Source of the DNA: a virus
Taxonomy: Duplodnaviria > Caudoviricetes
DNA: 41,719 nucleotides
Reading direction: 5' to 3' (one strand)
IMG/VR virus record: IMGVR_UViG_3300020045_018018
Span: 1-41,719 of that record
In this document: in pieces, positions 6,430-40,630 of the stretch
Numbering within the stretch: the stretch's first letter is position 1
Layout of the letters: each line of letters starts with the position of its first letter
Notes under the pieces: generated by a model
Told to the model about the DNA's origin: nothing
Databases searched by the model: none
The model's input: only the letters and a program-made list of their open reading frames with translations
Made by a program: the position numbers and the translations under genes

Positions 6430-6996
6430 ATGGCAATTGGAATAAATAAAAATTATACAGAAGACATGAAATCCGATATTGACGAAAACCTTGACACTAT
6501 TTCAGAAGTTCTTGAAGATGTTGAAGAAATAGACAGACATAATCATCATTTTGAAAAATGGTTTGAAACAGCGGCAAGCGCAAGCGGCGAATTACATGTT
6601 GCTGATAGAATAGGATCAGGCGGTGGAGCATTTCAAATCGACGCAGGGAATGATACCTGGGGCGCATGGGCGCAAATTTTGGGATCAGGCGATACGCCGA
6701 CCGAACTGCAAAAAACAAAATTTGATTTTCATGAATTACAAATTACGGCAGCTGAAAGGACAGCATTATATTATATTCAAATCGCATTCGGAGAGACAGG
6801 GGATTCGGCACTAGCAAATAATCGATATACAGAAACGCCATTCGAGCCTCAATCGGTTGCGGGAAAACCGGATTATATCGAAATCAGGTCGGAACAAATT
6901 AATGTTAAAGAAAAAGTCTGGGCAAGATGCAAATGCCCGGGTCAAAATACAGCAACGCTTAATTTACTTTTTGGAATTCACGAATATTTAGAATAA
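6430..6996 (+). CDS. Hypothetical, probably virion-associated protein
   Basis: RBS GGAG; beta-rich composition; late operon. Confidence 0.7.
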   Translation: MAIGINKNYTEDMKSDIDENLDTISEVLEDVEEIDRHNHHFEKWFETAASASGELHVADRIGSGGGAFQIDAGNDTWGAWAQILGSGDTPTELQKTKFDFHELQITAAERTALYYIQIAFGETGDSALANNRYTETPFEPQSVAGKPDYIEIRSEQINVKEKVWARCKCPGQNTATLNLLFGIHEYLE

Positions 6997-7062
6997 AATT
7001 TCCTGTTTGGGAATAAAAAATAAAAACCGTTTTCAAAGCGGTTAAAAAAAAAGGTGGTTAAT

Positions 7063-8055
7063 ATGGGAATCCGCACACAATTACAAGGCATTGAAAATTT
7101 ACTTTTCAAAGTCGAAGATTTTGGCGTTTCATGGTTTGTCGATGGTACTAATGGCAGCGACACTTATTCAGGACTTGATTGGGATCATGCAAAAGCAACA
7201 ATTCAGGCGGCAGTAACGGCAGCAAGCGCAGGAGACAAAATTTTTATTGCGCCAAAACTTATGGCGGCGGGCGCAACCGATCCAAATTCTTATGCCGAAA
7301 CAATTATAATTCCAGCAACCCATTCAAATCTTGCGCTTATAGGCGTTTCAAGGGGCAGAACTCAAGCGGGACTTCCACAAATAAAAAAAGGATCAGGCTC
7401 AACAGCGCAAATTACTATCAGAGCGTGCGGATGTCTTATCGCAAATCTTGGAATTAACGGCGCAGGTGCGACTGGTGGCGGTATTTTGCTAGACGATGAT
7501 GGAACTACAAAAACCGCGCTCGGCACTACAATTATCGGGTGTCATTTCAAAAATTGTAAAGTTTCGACAACCGATGGACGCACGGGCGGCGCTATAATGT
7601 GGTCTGCAAATGGCGGAGCATGGCAAGTATTAATAAAAGGCAATAGATTCTACAACAATGTTGCGGACGTTGTTCTTATTGGCACGGCGCAAACTGTTCC
7701 TCAAGATGTTGTCATTGAAGATAACGAATTTTCAGGCACTGCAGCAAGTGTTGATGTGAATCTTTACCTTGCCGGCGGATCAGGCATGAACGGAGTTGTT
7801 ATAAGAAATAATGTTTTTGGACAATTACCGGCGGTCGGTTCAGGATCAGTCGTAAGATATGTCGACATGACAGGATGCATTAACGGAATGTTTGTCGATA
7901 ATGTTTTCGGATGCCAAACAAATACCACCGGCGGAACAAAATTAACATTTAAGGCTTCCGGTACGGCTGCAAAAATCCCAGTAACCGTCCATGTCGCAAG
8001 ATGTTACGGACAATCGATCACTACGAGCGAAAGCGGAGAAATCACAATTGCATAA
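7063..8055 (+). CDS. Right-handed beta-helix (pectin-lyase-like) protein, putative head spike/depolymerase
   Basis: WFVDGTNGSDTYSGLDWDHAKATIQAAV...GDKIFI N-cap followed by repeated IxxNxF units. Confidence 0.75.
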   Translation: MGIRTQLQGIENLLFKVEDFGVSWFVDGTNGSDTYSGLDWDHAKATIQAAVTAASAGDKIFIAPKLMAAGATDPNSYAETIIIPATHSNLALIGVSRGRTQAGLPQIKKGSGSTAQITIRACGCLIANLGINGAGATGGGILLDDDGTTKTALGTTIIGCHFKNCKVSTTDGRTGGAIMWSANGGAWQVLIKGNRFYNNVADVVLIGTAQTVPQDVVIEDNEFSGTAASVDVNLYLAGGSGMNGVVIRNNVFGQLPAVGSGSVVRYVDMTGCINGMFVDNVFGCQTNTTGGTKLTFKASGTAAKIPVTVHVARCYGQSITTSESGEITIA

Positions 8056-8641
8056 AAATATATTTATATTAAGCGGGCTTTTAATAGCCTGCTTAATTTC
8101 TATATTTTTATTATTATTTTTTCAAAAACAATATATTTCTCAGATAACAAAAAACAATGACAAGTTATTAGCAGATTTAAGTTCTGATTTAAGCGATAGG
8201 GCAAAAGAAATTGAAGATTTGAAAAACAATCCTATTATAAAAACAGTAACAAAAACAATCACCAAAGAAATTTTAAAAACTATTCCGGACAAAGAAAAAG
8301 ACGAATTAATTATAAAATTCCAGGATGAAAATAATAATTTGCGAATACGGATTGATGTTTTGAATAAAATAATAGATTCAGACACATCAACAATCGAAAC
8401 ATTAAAAGCAAGCCTAGAAAAAACAAATATTATTTTAAAAAATCGATTTATTCCTAATTGGGGCTTCAATTTTGCCATTATGGGTGGCGTGGATCAAAAA
8501 TTGAATATTGATTGTTATGGAATAATTACGGCTCGAAAATATTTTTTTGACGGGCATTTTTATTTTGGTTTTGGAGCCGGTTTAAAATTTTACGACAAAT
8601 GGGGCGGAGCCGGAATTTTGGAAATAGGATTTACTTTTTAA
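8048..8641 (+). CDS. Membrane-anchored coiled-coil protein with C-terminal amphipathic beta-strands (spanin-like candidate)
   Basis: Probable TTG start at 8048 after GGAG; N-terminal TM, heptad-rich middle, ends GAGILEIGFTF. Confidence 0.6.
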   Translation: MHKNIFILSGLLIACLISIFLLLFFQKQYISQITKNNDKLLADLSSDLSDRAKEIEDLKNNPIIKTVTKTITKEILKTIPDKEKDELIIKFQDENNNLRIRIDVLNKIIDSDTSTIETLKASLEKTNIILKNRFIPNWGFNFAIMGGVDQKLNIDCYGIITARKYFFDGHFYFGFGAGLKFYDKWGGAGILEIGFTF

Positions 8642-24369: not shown

Positions 24370-24398
24370 AGCAGGGTTAGTTTTAATCCTGCTTTTTT
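24370..24398 (+). terminator. Intrinsic terminator at convergence of late and early arms
   Basis: AGCAGGGTTA-gttt-TAATCCTGCT followed by a T run. Confidence 0.7.
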
Positions 24399-26602: not shown

Positions 26603-27079
26603 TTAAAAAGGAATAGAATTATCTATATCACTATTTTCATTTTCTTCCGGTTCTGGTTGCGAACTTTGATTTTTAAACGGATTTCCTGATTGACCAGAAT
26701 TATTATTATTCGGCTTATTTTCGGGTTTATTGCCTTGATTTTCTTCGTTTTTAGTATTCAAAAATTGAATATTATTAGCAATAATCATAATTTTTGATTT
26801 TTTATTTCCAGAATCATCCATCCAACGATCTTGTTTTAATTGACCTTCAACGGCAATTTTATTTCCTTTTTTTAGATATTTATTGCAAACTTCAGATAAA
26901 TTATTCCAGCATTGAATATCAAAAAAATTAACTTGTTTTATTTCTTTTCCATCTTTTGAATAATCTTGATTATTTGCAATCGAAAAATTACAAACGGGAG
27001 TCCCATTTTTTGTATATTTTAATTCAACGTCTTTTGTAAGATTTCCTAAAACAAAACAATTATTTATATCTTTGCTCAC
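26603..27079 (-). CDS. ssb: Single-stranded DNA-binding protein
   Basis: LGNLTKDVELKYT, YLKKGNKIAVEGQL, acidic tail ending IPF; GTG start after GGAGG. Confidence 0.95.
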   Translation of the reverse strand: MSKDINNCFVLGNLTKDVELKYTKNGTPVCNFSIANNQDYSKDGKEIKQVNFFDIQCWNNLSEVCNKYLKKGNKIAVEGQLKQDRWMDDSGNKKSKIMIIANNIQFLNTKNEENQGNKPENKPNNNNSGQSGNPFKNQSSQPEPEENENSDIDNSIPF

Positions 27080-27272
27080 AAATTCCTCCAAAAACTAATT
27101 TTACATTATGAATATTTTTCATTGCCTGATTATTTGCATTTTTCAAAATTAACATTTCAGAATCGTTATAATTTACATGATCTTCAAAAACAATTCTTCG
27201 TTCATCGTTTTCAGTGAATTTTATTTTGTAATTTAATCCGAGTTTTTCTGAAAAATAAATTTTATCAGACAT
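27060..27272 (-). CDS. Hypothetical protein
   Basis: RBS AAGGA; FEDHVNY..SE...IHNVKLVFGG. Confidence 0.7.
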   Translation of the reverse strand: MSDKIYFSEKLGLNYKIKFTENDERRIVFEDHVNYNDSEMLILKNANNQAMKNIHNVKLVFGGICEQRYK

Positions 27273-27299
27273 AAAAATAAATCCTTAAAAATATAAAAA

Positions 27300-27440
27300 A
27301 GCAGAGGCAAGAAATTTCATCTTACAATATCGGGTTGATATGGCTAGTAAGGTTTTATTTTTCAACCGATTAACGCTTAGCCGAGGATTTTCACCTCAGC
27401 GATTCCCATACTCAATAATGTTTTATTCCATCACTCTGCT
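27300..27440 (-). ncRNA. tRNA-like structured RNA (element C)
   Basis: AGCAGAG/CTCTGCT acceptor-like stem, TG linker, ATG/CAT D-like arm, GCTGAGG-tgaaaat-CCTCGGC hairpin, 9-bp stem with 23-nt loop, GTAAGA-tgaaatt-TCTTGC T-like arm. Confidence 0.65.
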
Positions 27441-27450
27441 TTTATTTTTT

Positions 27451-28107
27451 TCATTCAACCACAACCCCAGTAACTAGCCATTTTGCCGTGAAAATAAATT
27501 TTGCATATTGATAATCGTGATACCCTGGGCTTGCAAGATGGGTTATAGCATCAAAAGGATTAGAATATCCTTGTTTCCAATCAATTTTGCCTTCATTATC
27601 TGTCAATACCCAAACCAAACCAGGTTGACCGTATTGGCAACTTGCTGATTGCCATTGGTAGGGAGAATTATGAGCTCGTATTTGAAAACTCGCATTTCCA
27701 TGATAACCATCAATAAGACTAAAATCAATAGCGATATAAGCCATACCTCCGCCGGTAATTGAAGACAGGTCTAAGGTGTGAATCACGGAATCAGCATTAT
27801 AAGAATTGTTCCAATAAAACCATCCATTATTAAAATCATCGGCGACATCAACTGGATTAATGTCAAGATACCCATTAGCGCCGTCAGTTGTCAATTCGCT
27901 TGCGACCGGGTCATTTGTAGAAATAGATTTTTGCAAGCCGGATAAACTAATATTTTTTGATGAACTCAAAACTGGATAAATTTGAGTGTTAATAAATTTC
28001 GTCACTGAATTTTCAGTTTTTATAACAGTTTGTGTTTCTTTTACCTCCCCTGCCGGACTACACGAAAAAAATAATAGCGTAATAAATAAAAAAATTAAAT
28101 ATTTCAT
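27451..28107 (-). CDS. Lipoprotein, hypothetical
   Basis: Signal MKYLIFLFITLLFFS-C; RBS GGAGG; beta-rich C-terminal domain. Confidence 0.8.
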   Translation of the reverse strand: MKYLIFLFITLLFFSCSPAGEVKETQTVIKTENSVTKFINTQIYPVLSSSKNISLSGLQKSISTNDPVASELTTDGANGYLDINPVDVADDFNNGWFYWNNSYNADSVIHTLDLSSITGGGMAYIAIDFSLIDGYHGNASFQIRAHNSPYQWQSASCQYGQPGLVWVLTDNEGKIDWKQGYSNPFDAITHLASPGYHDYQYAKFIFTAKWLVTGVVVE

Positions 28108-28140
28108 TTTAAACCTCCGTTTAAATTTTATCTAATAAAA

Positions 28141-28250
28141 CAGTAAAGACAGGATTCGAACCTGCGTGACCTTTCGTCAAACGATTTATAGCAATCGTTC
28201 TACTCAGTCTCTATCTATAATCACCGTTATAACCTCTCCGGCACTTTACT
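28141..28250 (-). ncRNA. Class II tRNA-like RNA with expanded anticodon arm (element A; Ser-like)
   Basis: AGTAAAG/CTTTACT acceptor, G discriminator, CCG-GAGAGGTTATAA-CGG D arm, TGAC-gaaag-GTCA variable arm, GCAGG-TTCGAAT-CCTGT T arm; 110 nt, no encoded CCA. Confidence 0.75.
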
Positions 28251-28261
28251 CATATTATAAA

Positions 28262-28317
28262 AAGCAAGATTAACTTAATTTTCCCTGGGGAGTACAAAAA
28301 TTTTATTAACCTCGCTT
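28262..28317 (-). ncRNA. Hairpin element between tRNA-like RNAs (element D)
   Basis: AAGCGAGGTTAA pairs with TTAATCTTGCTT (12 bp, two G-U pairs favouring the minus strand). Confidence 0.4.
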
Positions 28318-28347
28318 ATTTTTAAAACTTTTAGAACAAATATAAAA

Positions 28348-28471
28348 AGCAGAGACGGGATTTGAACCCGCATATATAGACCCGAATCGATCTATGTGTT
28401 ACCATTTTAAAAATCATTCATAGCCTTGCTAGCAAACCACGCCTTATTTTAAAATATTTCACCACTCTGCT
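28348..28471 (-). ncRNA. tRNA-like RNA with long D-loop insertion (element B)
   Basis: AGCAGAG/CTCTGCT acceptor, GTG-AAAT[insert]GGTAA-CAC D arm, ATAGA/TCTAT stem with non-canonical loop, GCGGG-TTCAAAT-CCCGT T arm. Confidence 0.75.
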
Positions 28472-28476
28472 TATTT

Positions 28477-29448
28477 TTAAAACAATGTTTGTTTTTTCTT
28501 TTCTTCTTTTTTTGGTTCTTTTGCATCCGGGATATTCCCAAATTCTGGCTCTTTTTCTTCAGGGATTTCTTCTTTTACGTTTCTTTTTGCCTCTTTGAAA
28601 TTTTCAATTGATTCGTCGGCAATTTCGCTCGCAATATCTTCCATTGACCTAACATTTTCAGGAATATTTTCTTCACGTTCAGAATAAAAAGCGTTTGCAA
28701 GTTCATCTTTGACATCTGCATAAGGTCGACAAAACGCCTTGATTGCTGTTTTTTCAATCATAGGTATTTCGTCCGTAACCCATGCCGAAGTCGAAACTTT
28801 TTTTGCAAGATAATCCTGATAAGTTTTTGAATGATTATCCCTAATTTCAAAAATTCTTGAAACCGGATAAAATTCGGCTTCTTTTTTGCCGTCTAGATGA
28901 ATTGCTTGTACCCAACATCCGATTGCCTTGCCTCGATCTTCATCAATGAAAATAGGGTGATCCACTTCACCGGTAGCACGGTTTATTTTAATATTATTTT
29001 TTTCTTTTTCGTAAACTACGCCCCAGAGTAAATCTTTGAAAATTGGTTTTTCTCCGCCACACAAAAGGGCGTGGTAGCCTTCACGTTTTATCTGAAAACT
29101 TGCTTCCTTGATCCATATATCTGCATTTCCAGAGCGAACTTTTTTTGAATAAGGGATAGCGTAAGCGTGTTTTTCAAGTTCAAGCCCTGTTTTCAAACAA
29201 TCGTCAATTAACATATAGATTGAAACTTTACCTTGATGAGTATTAAAGCAATCCTTGAGATTGTCGTTTTTGATAATACTTGCAATAGTGCGCATAAGGA
29301 ATTGATCTTGTTTATCTGGGCTTGAATTTCTTAACGAATCGCTTGCACGTTTCATCATTCGATCTTTATAAGTCGAAACCATTGACATTAACGATTTTTC
29401 GTTTGGCTGCAATAATTCAATCGGGGACAGTTCTTTTTTATCGGTCAT
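28477..29448 (-). CDS. RecT-family single-strand annealing protein
   Basis: KTGLELEKHAYAIPY, FQIKREGY, AWVTDEIPMIEKTAIK; near YqaJ exonuclease. Confidence 0.85.
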   Translation of the reverse strand: MTDKKELSPIELLQPNEKSLMSMVSTYKDRMMKRASDSLRNSSPDKQDQFLMRTIASIIKNDNLKDCFNTHQGKVSIYMLIDDCLKTGLELEKHAYAIPYSKKVRSGNADIWIKEASFQIKREGYHALLCGGEKPIFKDLLWGVVYEKEKNNIKINRATGEVDHPIFIDEDRGKAIGCWVQAIHLDGKKEAEFYPVSRIFEIRDNHSKTYQDYLAKKVSTSAWVTDEIPMIEKTAIKAFCRPYADVKDELANAFYSEREENIPENVRSMEDIASEIADESIENFKEAKRNVKEEIPEEKEPEFGNIPDAKEPKKEEKKKQTLF

Positions 29449-29459
29449 CAAAATACTCC

Positions 29460-32553: not shown

Positions 32554-33399
32554 TTATTTTAATAAATTTGTAAATATTTTTTCAAGAACATTGACTACGA
32601 TTGAATTTCCTGCTATATAATATATATTTTTATCTGGAATATTTTTAATTTTATTTATTTCGTTATTAAAACCCATTAATTTTAGACATTCTGTCGGAGT
32701 TATTTTGCGTTCGTTATTTATATATAATTGATTTGTAGTCATTATTGTCGGACAACATTTAAAATATTTGCGAATGTCATTTAGTTTTAATCTTGATTTA
32801 AGATAGTTTCTATCGTATATAAAAATACAGTCCGGTATTATTTCATTTAATTTTTTCATTTTTATTTTATTTGGTATCCAAAAATATTTATCAACATCTT
32901 TTCGTATTGAGACACAAAAAACACGTTCCCCATTTTGTGGTATATCGTAATCTTTTGCATTTAATAACATCGAATAATTAACATATCCAAAACCACTTAA
33001 TTTATTTAGCCATTCTTGATATTGACTATAAAACTTTTCACTTATTAAGTTTTTGACATTTTCTAATAATAAATATTTAGGTTTTTCAGTCATTCCGTTT
33101 AATAGTCTTTCAACTTCAAATAATAAACCTGACCGAGTGCCTTCTTTTATACCTTGTTGTTTACCTGCAATTGATAAATCTTGACACGGGAAACTATAAG
33201 TCAACAAATCACAATAAAACAAACTTTCAATTTTAGTTATATCACCAAAATTATTTACTTTTCCGTGTAATTGTTCATAGGCTTTTATTGTCCATTTGTC
33301 TATTTCTGAAATACCAATTACTTCATGTTCTATTCCTATGTTTTTTAGTGCTTGTGTTTGACTTCCAATTCCTGCAAACAATTCTATAACTTTTAACAT
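32554..33399 (-). CDS. C5 cytosine DNA methyltransferase
   Basis: ELFAGIG, SFPCQDLS, LENV, PQNGERVF, AGNSIVV. Confidence 0.95.
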   Translation of the reverse strand: MLKVIELFAGIGSQTQALKNIGIEHEVIGISEIDKWTIKAYEQLHGKVNNFGDITKIESLFYCDLLTYSFPCQDLSIAGKQQGIKEGTRSGLLFEVERLLNGMTEKPKYLLLENVKNLISEKFYSQYQEWLNKLSGFGYVNYSMLLNAKDYDIPQNGERVFCVSIRKDVDKYFWIPNKIKMKKLNEIIPDCIFIYDRNYLKSRLKLNDIRKYFKCCPTIMTTNQLYINNERKITPTECLKLMGFNNEINKIKNIPDKNIYYIAGNSIVVNVLEKIFTNLLK

Positions 33400-39208: not shown

Positions 39209-39940
39209 TTATAAATCCTTAAATAGTAAATTTGAATTATCTGGAATGTAAAATTCGTTTTTTAATTCTGCTTCTTTTTGTTTAATGCGTTCTATAGAAA
39301 TGTCACAATATTTTTTTTCTTTTTCAATCAGAATACATTGTCTATTTAATTCTAAGCAAGAAATTCCAGTTGTTCCGCTTCCAGAAAAACAATCCAATAT
39401 AATTCCTGATTTTGAATATTTTTTTATCAATTTTTCAAATAATTTTTTTGGCTTTTGAGTGGGATGATAATTTGATCTCTCCGATGGATCATCTTTAAAC
39501 GCCCCACACCATCTTTGTGTAAATTTCCTGCAAGTCCCATAAAAAGAAGACCACGCCAATTCGCAATCGGCAAAATAATTTTCTCCTGTTAATTTATCCC
39601 AAACTATTGGCTCTTTTGTGTTCCCCAAAAAATCGGCATAATAATTAAATCCAAAAATTATTTGATTCTTTGAAATTTGTTTTATTTTATCAAAATATAT
39701 TTTTGGAATTCTTTCCAAATCCCATTCTTGAGATTCTCCAAAATTTTTAAAATTTTTATTCATAAATCCTGTTATTTTTTTCCCACAAATACCATAAGGA
39801 GGATCGGTTAGAATTAAATCAATTGCTTTTTTTGGTATTTGCTGCATAATTTCAAAACAATCATTATTATACAAAACAATATTTTCAGTTTCAAAATATG
39901 GTTTTTCTTTAATTCTATTTTTTATTTCTTGTAATTCCAA
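39209..39940 (-). CDS. N6-adenine/N4-cytosine DNA methyltransferase (beta class)
   Basis: TDPPYG, HPTQKP, DCFSGSGTT. Confidence 0.93.
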   Translation of the reverse strand: MELQEIKNRIKEKPYFETENIVLYNNDCFEIMQQIPKKAIDLILTDPPYGICGKKITGFMNKNFKNFGESQEWDLERIPKIYFDKIKQISKNQIIFGFNYYADFLGNTKEPIVWDKLTGENYFADCELAWSSFYGTCRKFTQRWCGAFKDDPSERSNYHPTQKPKKLFEKLIKKYSKSGIILDCFSGSGTTGISCLELNRQCILIEKEKKYCDISIERIKQKEAELKNEFYIPDNSNLLFKDL

Positions 39941-39943
39941 AAT

Positions 39944-40630
39944 TTAATCCTTAAATAGTAAATTTTCTGAATCCGGTAAATGGTATTTACCGTCAATACG
40001 TGCCTTTTCTAATTCAAAACGTTTTTCTTGAGCTTCAAAATAATCTTTGTCAATTTCGCAACCTGTAAAATCAAAGCCAAGTTCATAACAAGCGATTCGA
40101 CTACTTCCTGAGCCTAAATGGCTGTCAAATATTTTGTCATTAGGTTTTGCGTAGTTTTGTAATAACCAGCGGTATAATGCAACTGGTTTTTGGGTGGGGT
40201 GAATTTTTTTATCATTAAAATTAGACAGGCTTCTTGAATATTCAAAAACTCTCAATGCCTTATTAAAAGATGTATATGCCAGTTCGCCATCTGCCAGACT
40301 AAAATCTCTTTGACCCTTATCCCAAAAAATCCATCCAGATGATCCGGAAAGAAATTGAACAAAATAATTTCCACCCCAAATTATTTGATCCTTGCTTATA
40401 CGAAATAACTCATCAAAATATTTTTTATCGGGTGTTTTATTATTCCATCCTTTACTTGCTTTGTCCCAAAAATCGCCGCTATTCCAACCATTCTGTTTTG
40501 ATCTTCCGCCTTCGAGTCGGCATAATTCGCCATATTCGGGATCGCAAATCGCTAACTCAAAGTATTTATCAGGAATTTTTTTCATGAATTCCATACAATC
40601 GCAATTATAAGCAACATTCCCCATTTTCAA
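39944..40630 (-). CDS. N6-adenine/N4-cytosine DNA methyltransferase (beta class, DPEY variant)
   Basis: CDPEYG, QIIWGGNYF, HPTQKP, DSHLGSGS. Confidence 0.9.
   Translation of the reverse strand: MKMGNVAYNCDCMEFMKKIPDKYFELAICDPEYGELCRLEGGRSKQNGWNSGDFWDKASKGWNNKTPDKKYFDELFRISKDQIIWGGNYFVQFLSGSSGWIFWDKGQRDFSLADGELAYTSFNKALRVFEYSRSLSNFNDKKIHPTQKPVALYRWLLQNYAKPNDKIFDSHLGSGSSRIACYELGFDFTGCEIDKDYFEAQEKRFELEKARIDGKYHLPDSENLLFKD

What the first reader, a model, noticed from the sequence alone, without database searches (positions are those of the whole stretch)
27300..28471. Cluster of tRNA-shaped RNAs carrying large inserted loops: candidate tRNA-scaffold antisense/decoy system
Seen: three minus-strand intergenic elements (C 27300-27440, A 28141-28250, B 28348-28471) plus a hairpin (D). 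Each has a perfect 7-bp acceptor-like stem followed by TG, a D-like arm and a T-like arm, but none has a normal 7-nt anticodon loop or encoded CCA. B and C share the acceptor AGCAGAG/CTCTGCT although their interiors are unrelated. B and C begin 5 and 10 nt after upstream stop codons. Known: RNase P reads the acceptor/T-arm, and the P1 C4 and P4 CI antisense RNAs are matured by RNase P. Inference: intact stems argue against simple decay; these may be scaffolds excised by host tRNA-processing enzymes to deliver antisense loops, or decoys against anticodon nucleases and other tRNA-sensing defences.
Basis: partly seen in the sequence, partly recalled or inferred. Interest (0 to 1): 0.88.

Follow-up and report, generated by a model that had tools for sequence, protein, structure and literature searches.

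The report
Three non-decoding tRNA look-alikes in phage
A small uncultured bacterial virus carries three tRNA-shaped genes, each swollen by a different insert and lacking a normal anticodon loop; one is laid out like the unexplained small RNA C of phage T4, and all three are likely cut out of the phage's early message by host tRNA-trimming enzymes instead of reading codons.

Summary
Three minus-strand cloverleaves (A, B, C) with perfect 7-bp acceptor stems and no encoded CCA, plus hairpin D, lie after recT in a 41.7-kb myovirus-like phage. Rfam and default ARAGORN miss them. All look tRNA-derived. A is serine-type with a 23-nt insert in front of a retained GCT anticodon. B carries the acceptor typical of phage tRNA-Met, a 52-nt rod in its D loop and a closed hairpin instead of an anticodon loop; this is T4 RNA C's layout, but B is not a family member. 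C has a branched insert and two UGAAA loops. Of 8 related contigs holding both flanking genes, one has an ordinary tRNA-Met in this slot and one another insert-bearing tRNA; the closest has only a terminator. No homolog of A, B or C was found, so covariation is untested. No antisense target was found in the phage genome. Best reading: non-decoding tRNA look-alikes likely cut out by RNase P, which would also split the early mRNA. Similar phage tRNA bodies with inserts are in print (T4, Lak) and this scan noted them before on other DNA.

The parts
28477..29451 (-). recT-like ssDNA annealing protein gene; its stop lies 5 nt before B
   Evidence: PHROG 148, E 2.6e-16; Pfam PF03837
28347..28471 (-). 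Element B: tRNA-shaped, Met-type acceptor AGCAGAG/CTCTGCT, T at position 73, followed by a T-run; no CCA
   Evidence: acceptor type
28404..28455 (-). 52-nt rod (imperfect hairpin) inserted in B's D loop before GG, flanked by a 4-nt direct repeat
   Evidence: fold; its removal restores tRNA length but gives no anticodon
28376..28395 (-). B's closed 7-bp hairpin with a 6-nt loop in the anticodon position; no U33
28262..28317 (-). Hairpin D: long terminator-like hairpin with AAGC...GCTT outer stem and T-run; shares a 14-nt 5' flank with B
28141..28250 (-). Element A: serine-type tRNA body (GG in D loop, long variable arm, TTCGA T loop, G73); no CCA
28196..28218 (-). 23-nt insert at the front of A's anticodon loop (junction can slide by 1-2 nt); GCT triplet retained at 28192-28190
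   Evidence: ARAGORN calls Ser(GCT), score 105.8, after removal; register check
27451..28107 (-). 218-aa orphan ORF with a lipoprotein-like signal (hydrophobic stretch ending FFSC), bracketed by A and C
   Evidence: no family or homolog; lipobox read from the sequence
27299..27440 (-). Element C: tRNA-shaped, same acceptor as B, branched insert in the anticodon arm, D loop without GG, T-run after the stem; no CCA
   Evidence: 0 of 1386 single deletions called a tRNA
27380..27400 (-). 7-bp hairpin in C's insert with loop UGAAAAU
27307..27325 (-). C's T-position arm: 6-bp stem with loop UGAAAUU (riboswitch-type T-loop consensus, not tRNA-type)
   Evidence: consensus from bioRxiv 2022.12.26.521914
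27060..27272 (-). 70-aa ORF marking the far end of the inserted block; its homolog follows recT directly in relative L001

Best explanation
A, B and C are tRNA-shaped genes with intact stems and no normal anticodon loop, likely descended from phage tRNA genes picked up after recT, and they likely serve as cut-out signals: host RNase P and 3' trimming would release them as small non-decoding RNAs and would split the early message around the lipoprotein-like gene. Shown: shape, position, tRNA-type identity features, absence of a readable anticodon as encoded, and the contents of the same slot in relatives. Inferred: co-transcription with recT (promoter-like sites in the region are near chance level); RNase P cleavage at the 5' base of each acceptor; 3' ends made at the T-runs by termination or trimming, then CCA addition; a consequent effect on the stability of the recT, lipoprotein and ssb messages. 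The three read like stages of one process: insert with anticodon kept (A), anticodon arm closed (B), tRNA elbow consensus replaced (C). Any second role of the freed RNAs as decoys for proteins that read the acceptor/T-arm face is untested.
For: Non-random cloverleaves. tRNA ancestry: B's 3' end pattern retrieves tRNA-Met(CAT) in 38 of 52 viral loci; A has the long variable arm and G73 named as SerRS determinants in PMC5389517 (passage) plus GCT in register. Slot history: of 8 distinct related contigs holding both recT and the minor-tail-like gene, L006/L244 has an ordinary tRNA-Met 32 nt after the recT stop and L255 has a 105-nt insert-bearing Leu-type cloverleaf; the closest relative has a terminator-like hairpin exactly where B starts. 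Selection on shape after loss of decoding, read from the sequence: B's anticodon-position arm is a fully paired 7-bp hairpin without U33, and B versus C differ at one D-stem pair and four T-stem pairs with every pair kept. Precedent: T4 rnaC has the same rod-in-D-loop layout and no encoded CCA, its fold covaries across 9 phages (27 of 41 pairs changed on both sides), and it is a real transcript of unknown function (PMC9697503 passage). [quoted passage not shown]
Against: No homolog of A, B or C was found, so conservation and covariation of these very elements are untested; one genome cannot exclude recent decay. C lacks the D-loop GG and T-loop TTC that form the elbow RNase P clamps (PMC4810234 passages). 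Six of the 8 related contigs have no tRNA-type element in the slot, so the phage family does without. L255's element folds no better than shuffles (z -0.52). The B-versus-C compensation argument fails if they came from two independent tRNA genes. T-runs after tRNA genes are common in AT-rich phages.
Confidence: 0.42

Rival explanations
1. They are decaying tRNA pseudogenes, recently disabled by insertions and not yet eroded.
For: No homologs anywhere searched; the slot is variable and usually empty of tRNA (6 of 8 contigs); A has an A-A mismatch at 31-39; C has lost GG and TTC; B's rod has AT-rich inverted ends and a 4-nt direct repeat, like a small insertion footprint.
Against: All three acceptor stems are 7/7 and all T stems fully paired although loops and interiors have changed heavily; B's anticodon arm is a new well-paired hairpin; folding z -2.2 to -3.75; enlarged cloverleaves of the same acceptor type recur in other phages (9 of 15 loci, 7 distinct sequences).
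Confidence: 0.2
2. A is a serine tRNA gene with a short intron (Lak-type) that is spliced out to give a working tRNA-Ser(GCU); B and C are something else.
For: Removing 23 nt gives an ARAGORN Ser(GCT) call at 105.8, and the anticodon fits the serine body; Lak tRNA introns are listed from 23 nt upward (PMC6784885 Table S6 rows); 7 of 16 enlarged cloverleaves examined can be restored to a normal-looking loop by one excision, by my reading.
Against: The product keeps an A31-A39 mismatch; other deletions score higher with other anticodons (108.4), so the score is not specific; no bulge-helix-bulge; too short for a group I intron; no RNA ligase or splicing nuclease among 46 proteins scanned; it cannot apply to B (no anticodon after rod removal) or C.
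Confidence: 0.14
3. B, C and D are simply intrinsic terminators or 3' protective folds built from old tRNA genes, with no role for tRNA enzymes.
For: Each ends in a GC-rich strand followed by 5-6 T; B replaces a scored terminator in the closest relative; the lineage's terminator-like hairpins share AGC...GCT outer stems (window 8072-8093, 24370-24393; L246); C has lost the elbow consensus but kept its helices.
Against: A and B keep the full D-loop GG and TTCRA, which a terminator does not need; several strong stops in a row would cut off ssb and downstream genes, for which no promoter stands out (61 sites versus 44.4 +/- 7.0 in shuffles over 8 kb).
Confidence: 0.1
4. The main purpose is trans-acting: the freed RNAs are decoys or handles for host proteins that read tRNA shape (defence sensors or nucleases, SerRS/EF-Tu for A), and the mRNA cutting is incidental.
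For: A keeps the SerRS determinants outside the anticodon; T4 rnaC is conserved with covariation inside tRNA clusters, where no mRNA needs cutting; C has two hairpin loops of T-loop type (2 of only 6 in the window; at least one in 0.15% of 20,000 shuffles of C).
Against: No partner protein or target identified; B and C display no anticodon loop for anticodon nucleases; the UGAAA test was made after seeing the motif and the auxiliary-helix rule is not met.
Confidence: 0.1
5. They are C4/CI-like antisense RNAs whose loops silence a phage or host message.
For: C4 precursor is an RNase P substrate (reference title seen in PMC11143913); A's insert could be single-stranded in the cloverleaf fold.
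Against: No complementary target in the phage genome above shuffle level; no Rfam C4-type hit; B's and C's inserts are paired, not open loops.
Confidence: 0.04

Closest known systems
Phage T4 species 1 RNA (rnaC; NC_000866.4 70908-71046)
   Same: B has the same layout: acceptor, long rod closing on a 3-bp D stem, a closed hairpin, TTCRA T arm, no encoded CCA, similar size (124 vs 139 nt).
   Different: B lacks rnaC's conserved motifs and mismatched acceptor; it scores 12.5 bits with an rnaC model (T4 145.3; next chance hit 10.4), from the T arm and ends only. rnaC sits in tRNA clusters of large T4-like phages; B sits in an early operon of a small phage with no ordinary tRNA.
'Enigmatic' introns in tRNA genes of Lak megaphages (Devoto et al. 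2019, PMC6784885)
   Same: A is a whole tRNA body with a short anticodon-loop insert; 23 nt is within the listed range.
   Different: Lak inserts are listed as starting at positions 37-41 (predicted with eukaryotic settings) and are identical across cohorts; A's lies in front of the anticodon, has no known second copy, and leaves a 31-39 mismatch.
Ordinary phage tRNA-Met(CAT) and tRNA-Ser (Rfam RF00005)
   Same: B/C acceptor and B's T arm match phage tRNA-Met; A has a serine body; a relative has a true tRNA-Met in the same slot.
   Different: No normal anticodon loop; below the gathering score (B 14 bits, A 12.6 bits for the T arm only, cut-off 29).
C4 antisense RNA of P1/P7 and CI RNA of P4
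   Same: Small phage RNAs matured by RNase P (C4: reference title seen; CI: recalled).
   Different: No Rfam hit and no complementary target in this genome.
YrlA-type Y RNAs (PMC4201824)
   Same: Non-decoding RNAs with tRNA D/T arms, also found in phages; one is cut by RNase P and gets CCA.
   Different: No Ro60 gene among the proteins scanned and no Rfam hit; here the acceptor is formed by the two ends of the RNA.

Membership tests
Canonical decoding tRNA (RF00005) | 7-bp acceptor, D arm, 5-bp T stem | tested here: met
   (C's T stem has 6 bp)
Canonical decoding tRNA (RF00005) | 7-nt anticodon loop with U33 | tested here: not met
   A loop about 30 nt, B 6-8 nt without U33, C branched
Canonical decoding tRNA (RF00005) | D-loop GG and T-loop TTCRA | tested here: inconclusive
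   met in A and B, not in C
Canonical decoding tRNA (RF00005) | Score above Rfam gathering cut-off or default ARAGORN call | tested here: not met
T4 species 1 RNA (rnaC) | Rod inside the D arm, closed hairpin, T arm, no CCA | tested here: met
   B only
T4 species 1 RNA (rnaC) | Family sequence/structure profile | tested here: not met
   12.5 bits versus 145.3, model from 9 phages
T4 species 1 RNA (rnaC) | Accumulates as a stable RNA | not testable with these tools
   no run was listed
Lak-type tRNA intron | One excision restores a canonical tRNA | tested here: inconclusive
   A: Ser(GCT) 105.8 with a 31-39 mismatch; B and C: no
Lak-type tRNA intron | Insert-less and insert-bearing alleles of the same gene; conserved insert | tested here: inconclusive
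   no second copy of A found
Group I intron in tRNA | Catalytic core of roughly 200 nt or more (recalled) | tested here: not met
   inserts 23 to about 65 nt; no Rfam hit
Archaeal-type tRNA intron | Bulge-helix-bulge at the junctions (recalled motif) | tested here: not met
   read from predicted folds; no 3-nt bulges around a 4-bp helix
C4/CI antisense RNA | Loops complementary to targets in the same genome | tested here: not met
C4/CI antisense RNA | Maturation by RNase P | not testable with these tools
   inferred from structure only
YrlA Y RNA | Adjacent Ro60 gene | tested here: not met
   46 proteins against PHROGs, 20 against Pfam; record about 90% complete
Allo-tRNA (8/4 or 9/3 branch, PMC5389517) | 8/4 or 9/3 acceptor/T-stem | tested here: not met
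   A and B are 7/5
FMN/cobalamin-type T-loop/receptor contact (element C) | 7-nt loops fitting (YGNRA)NY and UNANA | tested here: met
   UGAAAUU and UGAAAAU
FMN/cobalamin-type T-loop/receptor contact (element C) | 2-bp auxiliary helix between receptor loop and the bases 3' of the T-loop stem | tested here: not met
   at best 1 of 2 pairs in register, read by eye (rule)

The most novel reading that the evidence does not exclude
Small phages keep a dedicated slot after recT for tRNA-scaffolded RNAs that evolve stepwise into new folded RNAs. Here three different ones are made from one transcript: a serine-chargeable RNA whose anticodon is locked by its own insert (A), a T4 RNA C-like rod RNA that arose independently (B), and an RNA that has traded the tRNA elbow for a riboswitch-type T-loop docking module (C). 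They would act as ligands for host tRNA-reading proteins or defence systems.
Probability: 0.12. Interest if true: 0.85.

Novelty: new variant of a known kind. Interest (0 to 1): 0.52.

Why it matters
T4's RNA C has been known for decades without a function, and the Lak tRNA inserts have no known splicing route. This locus puts three architectures of the same problem (insert before a kept anticodon, rod in the D loop, branched insert with changed elbow) into a 1.2-kb block of a small phage, and relatives supply natural comparisons for the slot: empty, ordinary tRNA-Met, and another insert-bearing tRNA. The block can be tested in one plasmid for RNase P cutting, CCA addition, splicing, serine charging and effects on the neighbouring messages. 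Such genes are missed by Rfam and default ARAGORN, so they are probably under-counted. The limits are that no homolog, host or transcript is in hand.

Tried and rejected
Rfam: nothing at gathering score in the whole window; at E up to 5 in 24-32 kb only chance-level hits and a tmRNA T-arm fragment. ARAGORN default: 0 genes; low thresholds flood the window with false calls; with introns allowed A is called Tyr(ATA), which I reject because the D stem is mis-drawn and the anticodon does not fit the body. BLASTN of the block against 50,697 phage records: only matches covering up to 4% of the query. A-type acceptor pattern: 22 loci, mostly ordinary Tyr/Ser/Cys/Asn tRNAs, one clear insert-bearing element (L107), no A homolog. 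RecT profile in genome contigs: none. Lipoprotein-like ORF: no relative in viral contigs or 5.8 billion proteins (near lengths only), Atlas hits under the bar. Prophage-like loci in 401 + 301 genomes: 15 loci read, none with a new element within about 1.5 kb of the marker gene. Sequencing runs: none was listed, no RNA holder listed; this is no evidence on expression. Antisense targets in the phage: none. A match of A's 3' end in L253 is a chance hit inside a coding region. Integron attC-like cassette sites: considered because B and C follow stop codons; rejected, since the recalled attC end motifs are not present and no integrase was among the 46 proteins scanned. A window-wide folding scan at 40-nt steps did not rank A, B or C at the top; the windows were not aligned to the element ends. 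Paper searches that found no description of these elements: (library lacks most subscription and older papers, including the original T4 RNA work); bioRxiv supplements were not seen.

Full report
Setting. The window is a whole 41,719-bp virus record, linear and about 90% complete by CheckV, 32% G+C. It encodes a lambda-type terminase and portal, a tail sheath and baseplate on the plus strand, and recE, recT, ssb, helicase, primase and three methyltransferases on the minus strand. It has no ordinary tRNA. A marker gene of this phage family occurs in 13 of 401 genomes of the phylum of a Treponema-labelled genome and in 1 of 301 (the centre itself) of the Omnitrophota-labelled one, so a spirochaete host is likely but not shown.

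Observation. The order on the minus strand is recT stop, B (28471-28348), hairpin D (28317-28262), A (28250-28142), a 218-aa orphan ORF with a lipoprotein-like signal, C (27440-27300), a 70-aa ORF and ssb. All three acceptor stems are 7/7, each is followed by TG, and none has CCA. A generic tRNA-end descriptor finds A and B and nothing else in the window, against 2 hits in 40 shuffled windows. Folding z-scores are -3.75 (B), -3.12 (C) and -2.20 (A). Rfam's tRNA model gives B 14 bits and A's T arm 12.6 bits, below the cut-off of 29.

Element A has a serine-type body: GG in the D loop, a long variable arm, a TTCGA T loop and G73. A long V arm and G73/U73 are named as SerRS determinants in PMC5389517 (passages seen). 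The anticodon loop is about 30 nt, and its last seven bases read TT-GCT-AT, a serine anticodon in register with the 3' stem strand. Removing 23 nt in front of it gives an ARAGORN Ser(GCT) call at 105.8. Against over-reading this: 1276 of 1386 single deletions are called at 90 or more, the best score (108.4) goes to other anticodons, and the product keeps an A31-A39 mismatch. As encoded, the anticodon is paired away in both folds examined, and the non-cloverleaf fold is 7.6 kcal/mol lower.

Element B carries a 52-nt rod in the D loop, before the GG, then a closed 7-bp hairpin with a 6-nt loop where the anticodon arm belongs, a short variable loop and a normal T arm. Removing the rod restores tRNA length, but ARAGORN finds no anticodon (score 104.4, type unknown; the Phe and Leu calls use the rod itself as the arm). 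A pattern for B's 3' end retrieves 52 viral loci, 38 of them tRNA-Met(CAT), 8 Met-like bodies called Arg(CCT), 1 Leu, 2 enlarged cloverleaves and 3 unclear. So the acceptor shared by B and C is the usual one of phage tRNA-Met. T4 rnaC has the same layout and also no encoded CCA. Its fold covaries across 9 T4-like phages (27 of 41 pairs changed on both sides, 94.6% of cells paired; the structure was derived from that alignment), and it is a late transcript of unknown function (PMC9697503 and PMC12685909, passages). B is not a member: 12.5 bits against 145.3 for T4, with a chance hit at 10.4.

Element C has B's acceptor and a related D arm, but the D loop lacks GG, the T position holds a 6-bp stem with loop UGAAAUU, and the anticodon arm is branched. 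None of 1386 deletions is called a tRNA. Between B and C one D-stem pair and four T-stem pairs differ and all stay paired (read); this shows selection only if they share an ancestor. C holds 2 of the 6 hairpins in the window that have six or more pairs and a 7-nt loop starting UGARA; shuffles of C give one in 0.15% and two in 0 of 20,000 (test made after seeing the motif). Both loops fit the FMN/cobalamin T-loop and receptor consensus (bioRxiv 2022.12.26.521914, introduction and passages), but the auxiliary helix required there is not in register. This is a lead, not a result.

The slot in relatives. In the closest relative (RecT 65%), recT is followed by one terminator-like hairpin and then the homolog of the 70-aa ORF, so the 1.2-kb block is an insertion relative to it. 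Eight distinct contigs hold both recT and the minor-tail-like gene. L006/L244 has an ordinary tRNA-Met 32 nt after the recT stop. L255 has a 105-nt Leu-type cloverleaf that ARAGORN reads as Leu(CAA) with a 27-nt insert; it is not homologous in its interior and folds no better than shuffles. The other six have hairpins or short ORFs only. L251, which lacks recT, begins with a T arm cut by the contig end. No homolog of A, B or C was found in viral contigs, metagenome loci, GTDB loci or 50,697 phage records.

The wider class. Asking for the B/C acceptor at 90-150 nt gave 15 loci, of which 9 (7 distinct sequences) are enlarged cloverleaves with unrelated interiors; the other 6 are one ordinary Ser tRNA, three tRNA dimers or duplicated 5' ends, one chance match and one unclear case. 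Among 215 distinct cloverleaf-like sequences in the loci fetched (a biased set), 19 were 98 nt or longer. Of 16 examined, 7 can by my reading be restored to a normal-looking anticodon loop by one excision. Short tRNA inserts are in print for Lak phages, 23-141 nt in the Table S6 rows seen (PMC6784885, passages and supplement rows). Earlier notes of this scan describe many such elements on other DNA; none matches this sequence. They were leads, not support.

Antisense test. The four insert or loop regions have no exact match in the rest of the genome above shuffle level except a 14-mer of the same sense as the mRNA (P=0.035), and their best duplexes with 58 start regions are no better than shuffles. 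Host targets are untested.

Terminator reading. B, C and D each end in a GC-rich strand followed by 5-6 T, and the ordinary terminator-like hairpins of this phage and its relatives share AGC...GCT outer stems. This explains the similar flanks of B, C and D without a common ancestor, and suggests that B and C also do the job of the hairpin they replace. It does not explain why A and B keep the elbow bases.

Mechanism. Shown: shape, position, identity features, lack of a readable anticodon, slot contents. Inferred: the block is read through from recT; RNase P, which clamps the elbow (PMC4810234, passages) and accepts a non-tRNA with a 7-bp acceptor-like stem (PMC4201824, passages), cuts at the first base of A and B and perhaps C; 3' ends form at the T-runs and receive CCA, as CCA-less T4 tRNAs need (PMC11143913, passage). 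This frees three small RNAs and separates the recT, lipoprotein and ssb messages. I give this 0.42; decay 0.20; splicing of A 0.14; plain terminators 0.10; a mainly trans-acting decoy 0.10; antisense 0.04.

Verdict. Real and unannotated, but a new variant of a known kind: tRNA bodies with inserts in phages. What is particular is three different architectures in one short block of a small phage, a slot that relatives fill with an ordinary or an insert-bearing tRNA, and C's paired T-loop-type hairpins. Without homologs, host or transcripts the function stays inferred. Interest 0.52.

Noticed in passing
L255 7611-7716 (= G011:C13): 105-nt Leu-type cloverleaf with a 27-nt anticodon-loop insert, 26 nt before the minor-tail-like gene of a related phage contig; the contig sits in an Omnitrophota-labelled genome but no other of 301 genomes of that phylum had the marker, so it may be a mis-binned phage.
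   Followed up: partly
L033, L039, L042, L044, L057, L058, L062, L069 (match at 601-621 or as listed): Eight viral loci carry a Met-like tRNA body with a CCT triplet followed by T at 37 instead of CAT-A; ARAGORN calls them Arg.
   Followed up: no
L074/L087, L075, L080/L086, L083, L084, L085, L088, L107, L027, L096, L097, L099, L156: Further enlarged tRNA-shaped elements in other phages, several with encoded CCA; some keep a fitting anticodon behind the insert, others do not.
   Followed up: partly
L078 1000-1141; L082 1000-1141: Ordinary tRNA-Met preceded about 70 nt upstream by a second copy of its own 5' acceptor strand.
   Followed up: no
L004, L005, L006 between recT and the minor-tail-like gene: A ribosome-binding site, a very short ORF (5-8 codons) and a strong terminator-like hairpin occupy the slot in three relatives.
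   Followed up: no
L008 2249-2333; L067 (65 nt): Divergent cloverleaf-like elements not called by ARAGORN, one of 85 nt in a distant relative and one of 65 nt with the B/C acceptor.
   Followed up: no
L111, L257-L264 (rnaC family): Just after the D stem the rnaC family keeps a short conserved loop-like motif resembling a Ser/Leu anticodon loop without its stem, so the hairpin before the T arm may be a former variable arm. Rfam 15 has no model for rnaC or rnaD.
   Followed up: partly
window 27451-28107: Orphan 218-aa lipoprotein-like ORF; its ribosome-binding region and first codons resemble those of a short lipoprotein-like ORF elsewhere in relative G001.
   Followed up: partly
window 8072-8093 and 24370-24393: Terminator-like hairpins with AGC...GCT outer stems; the second lies between the convergent late and early gene blocks. 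The first falls inside the listed ORF 7991-8641, whose start may be mis-called.
   Followed up: partly
window 32554-33399, 39209-39940, 39944-40630: Three DNA methyltransferase genes in a 42-kb phage.
   Followed up: no
L236 about 6550-7190: Tandem repeats of about 138 nt inside a coding region of a related phage.
   Followed up: no
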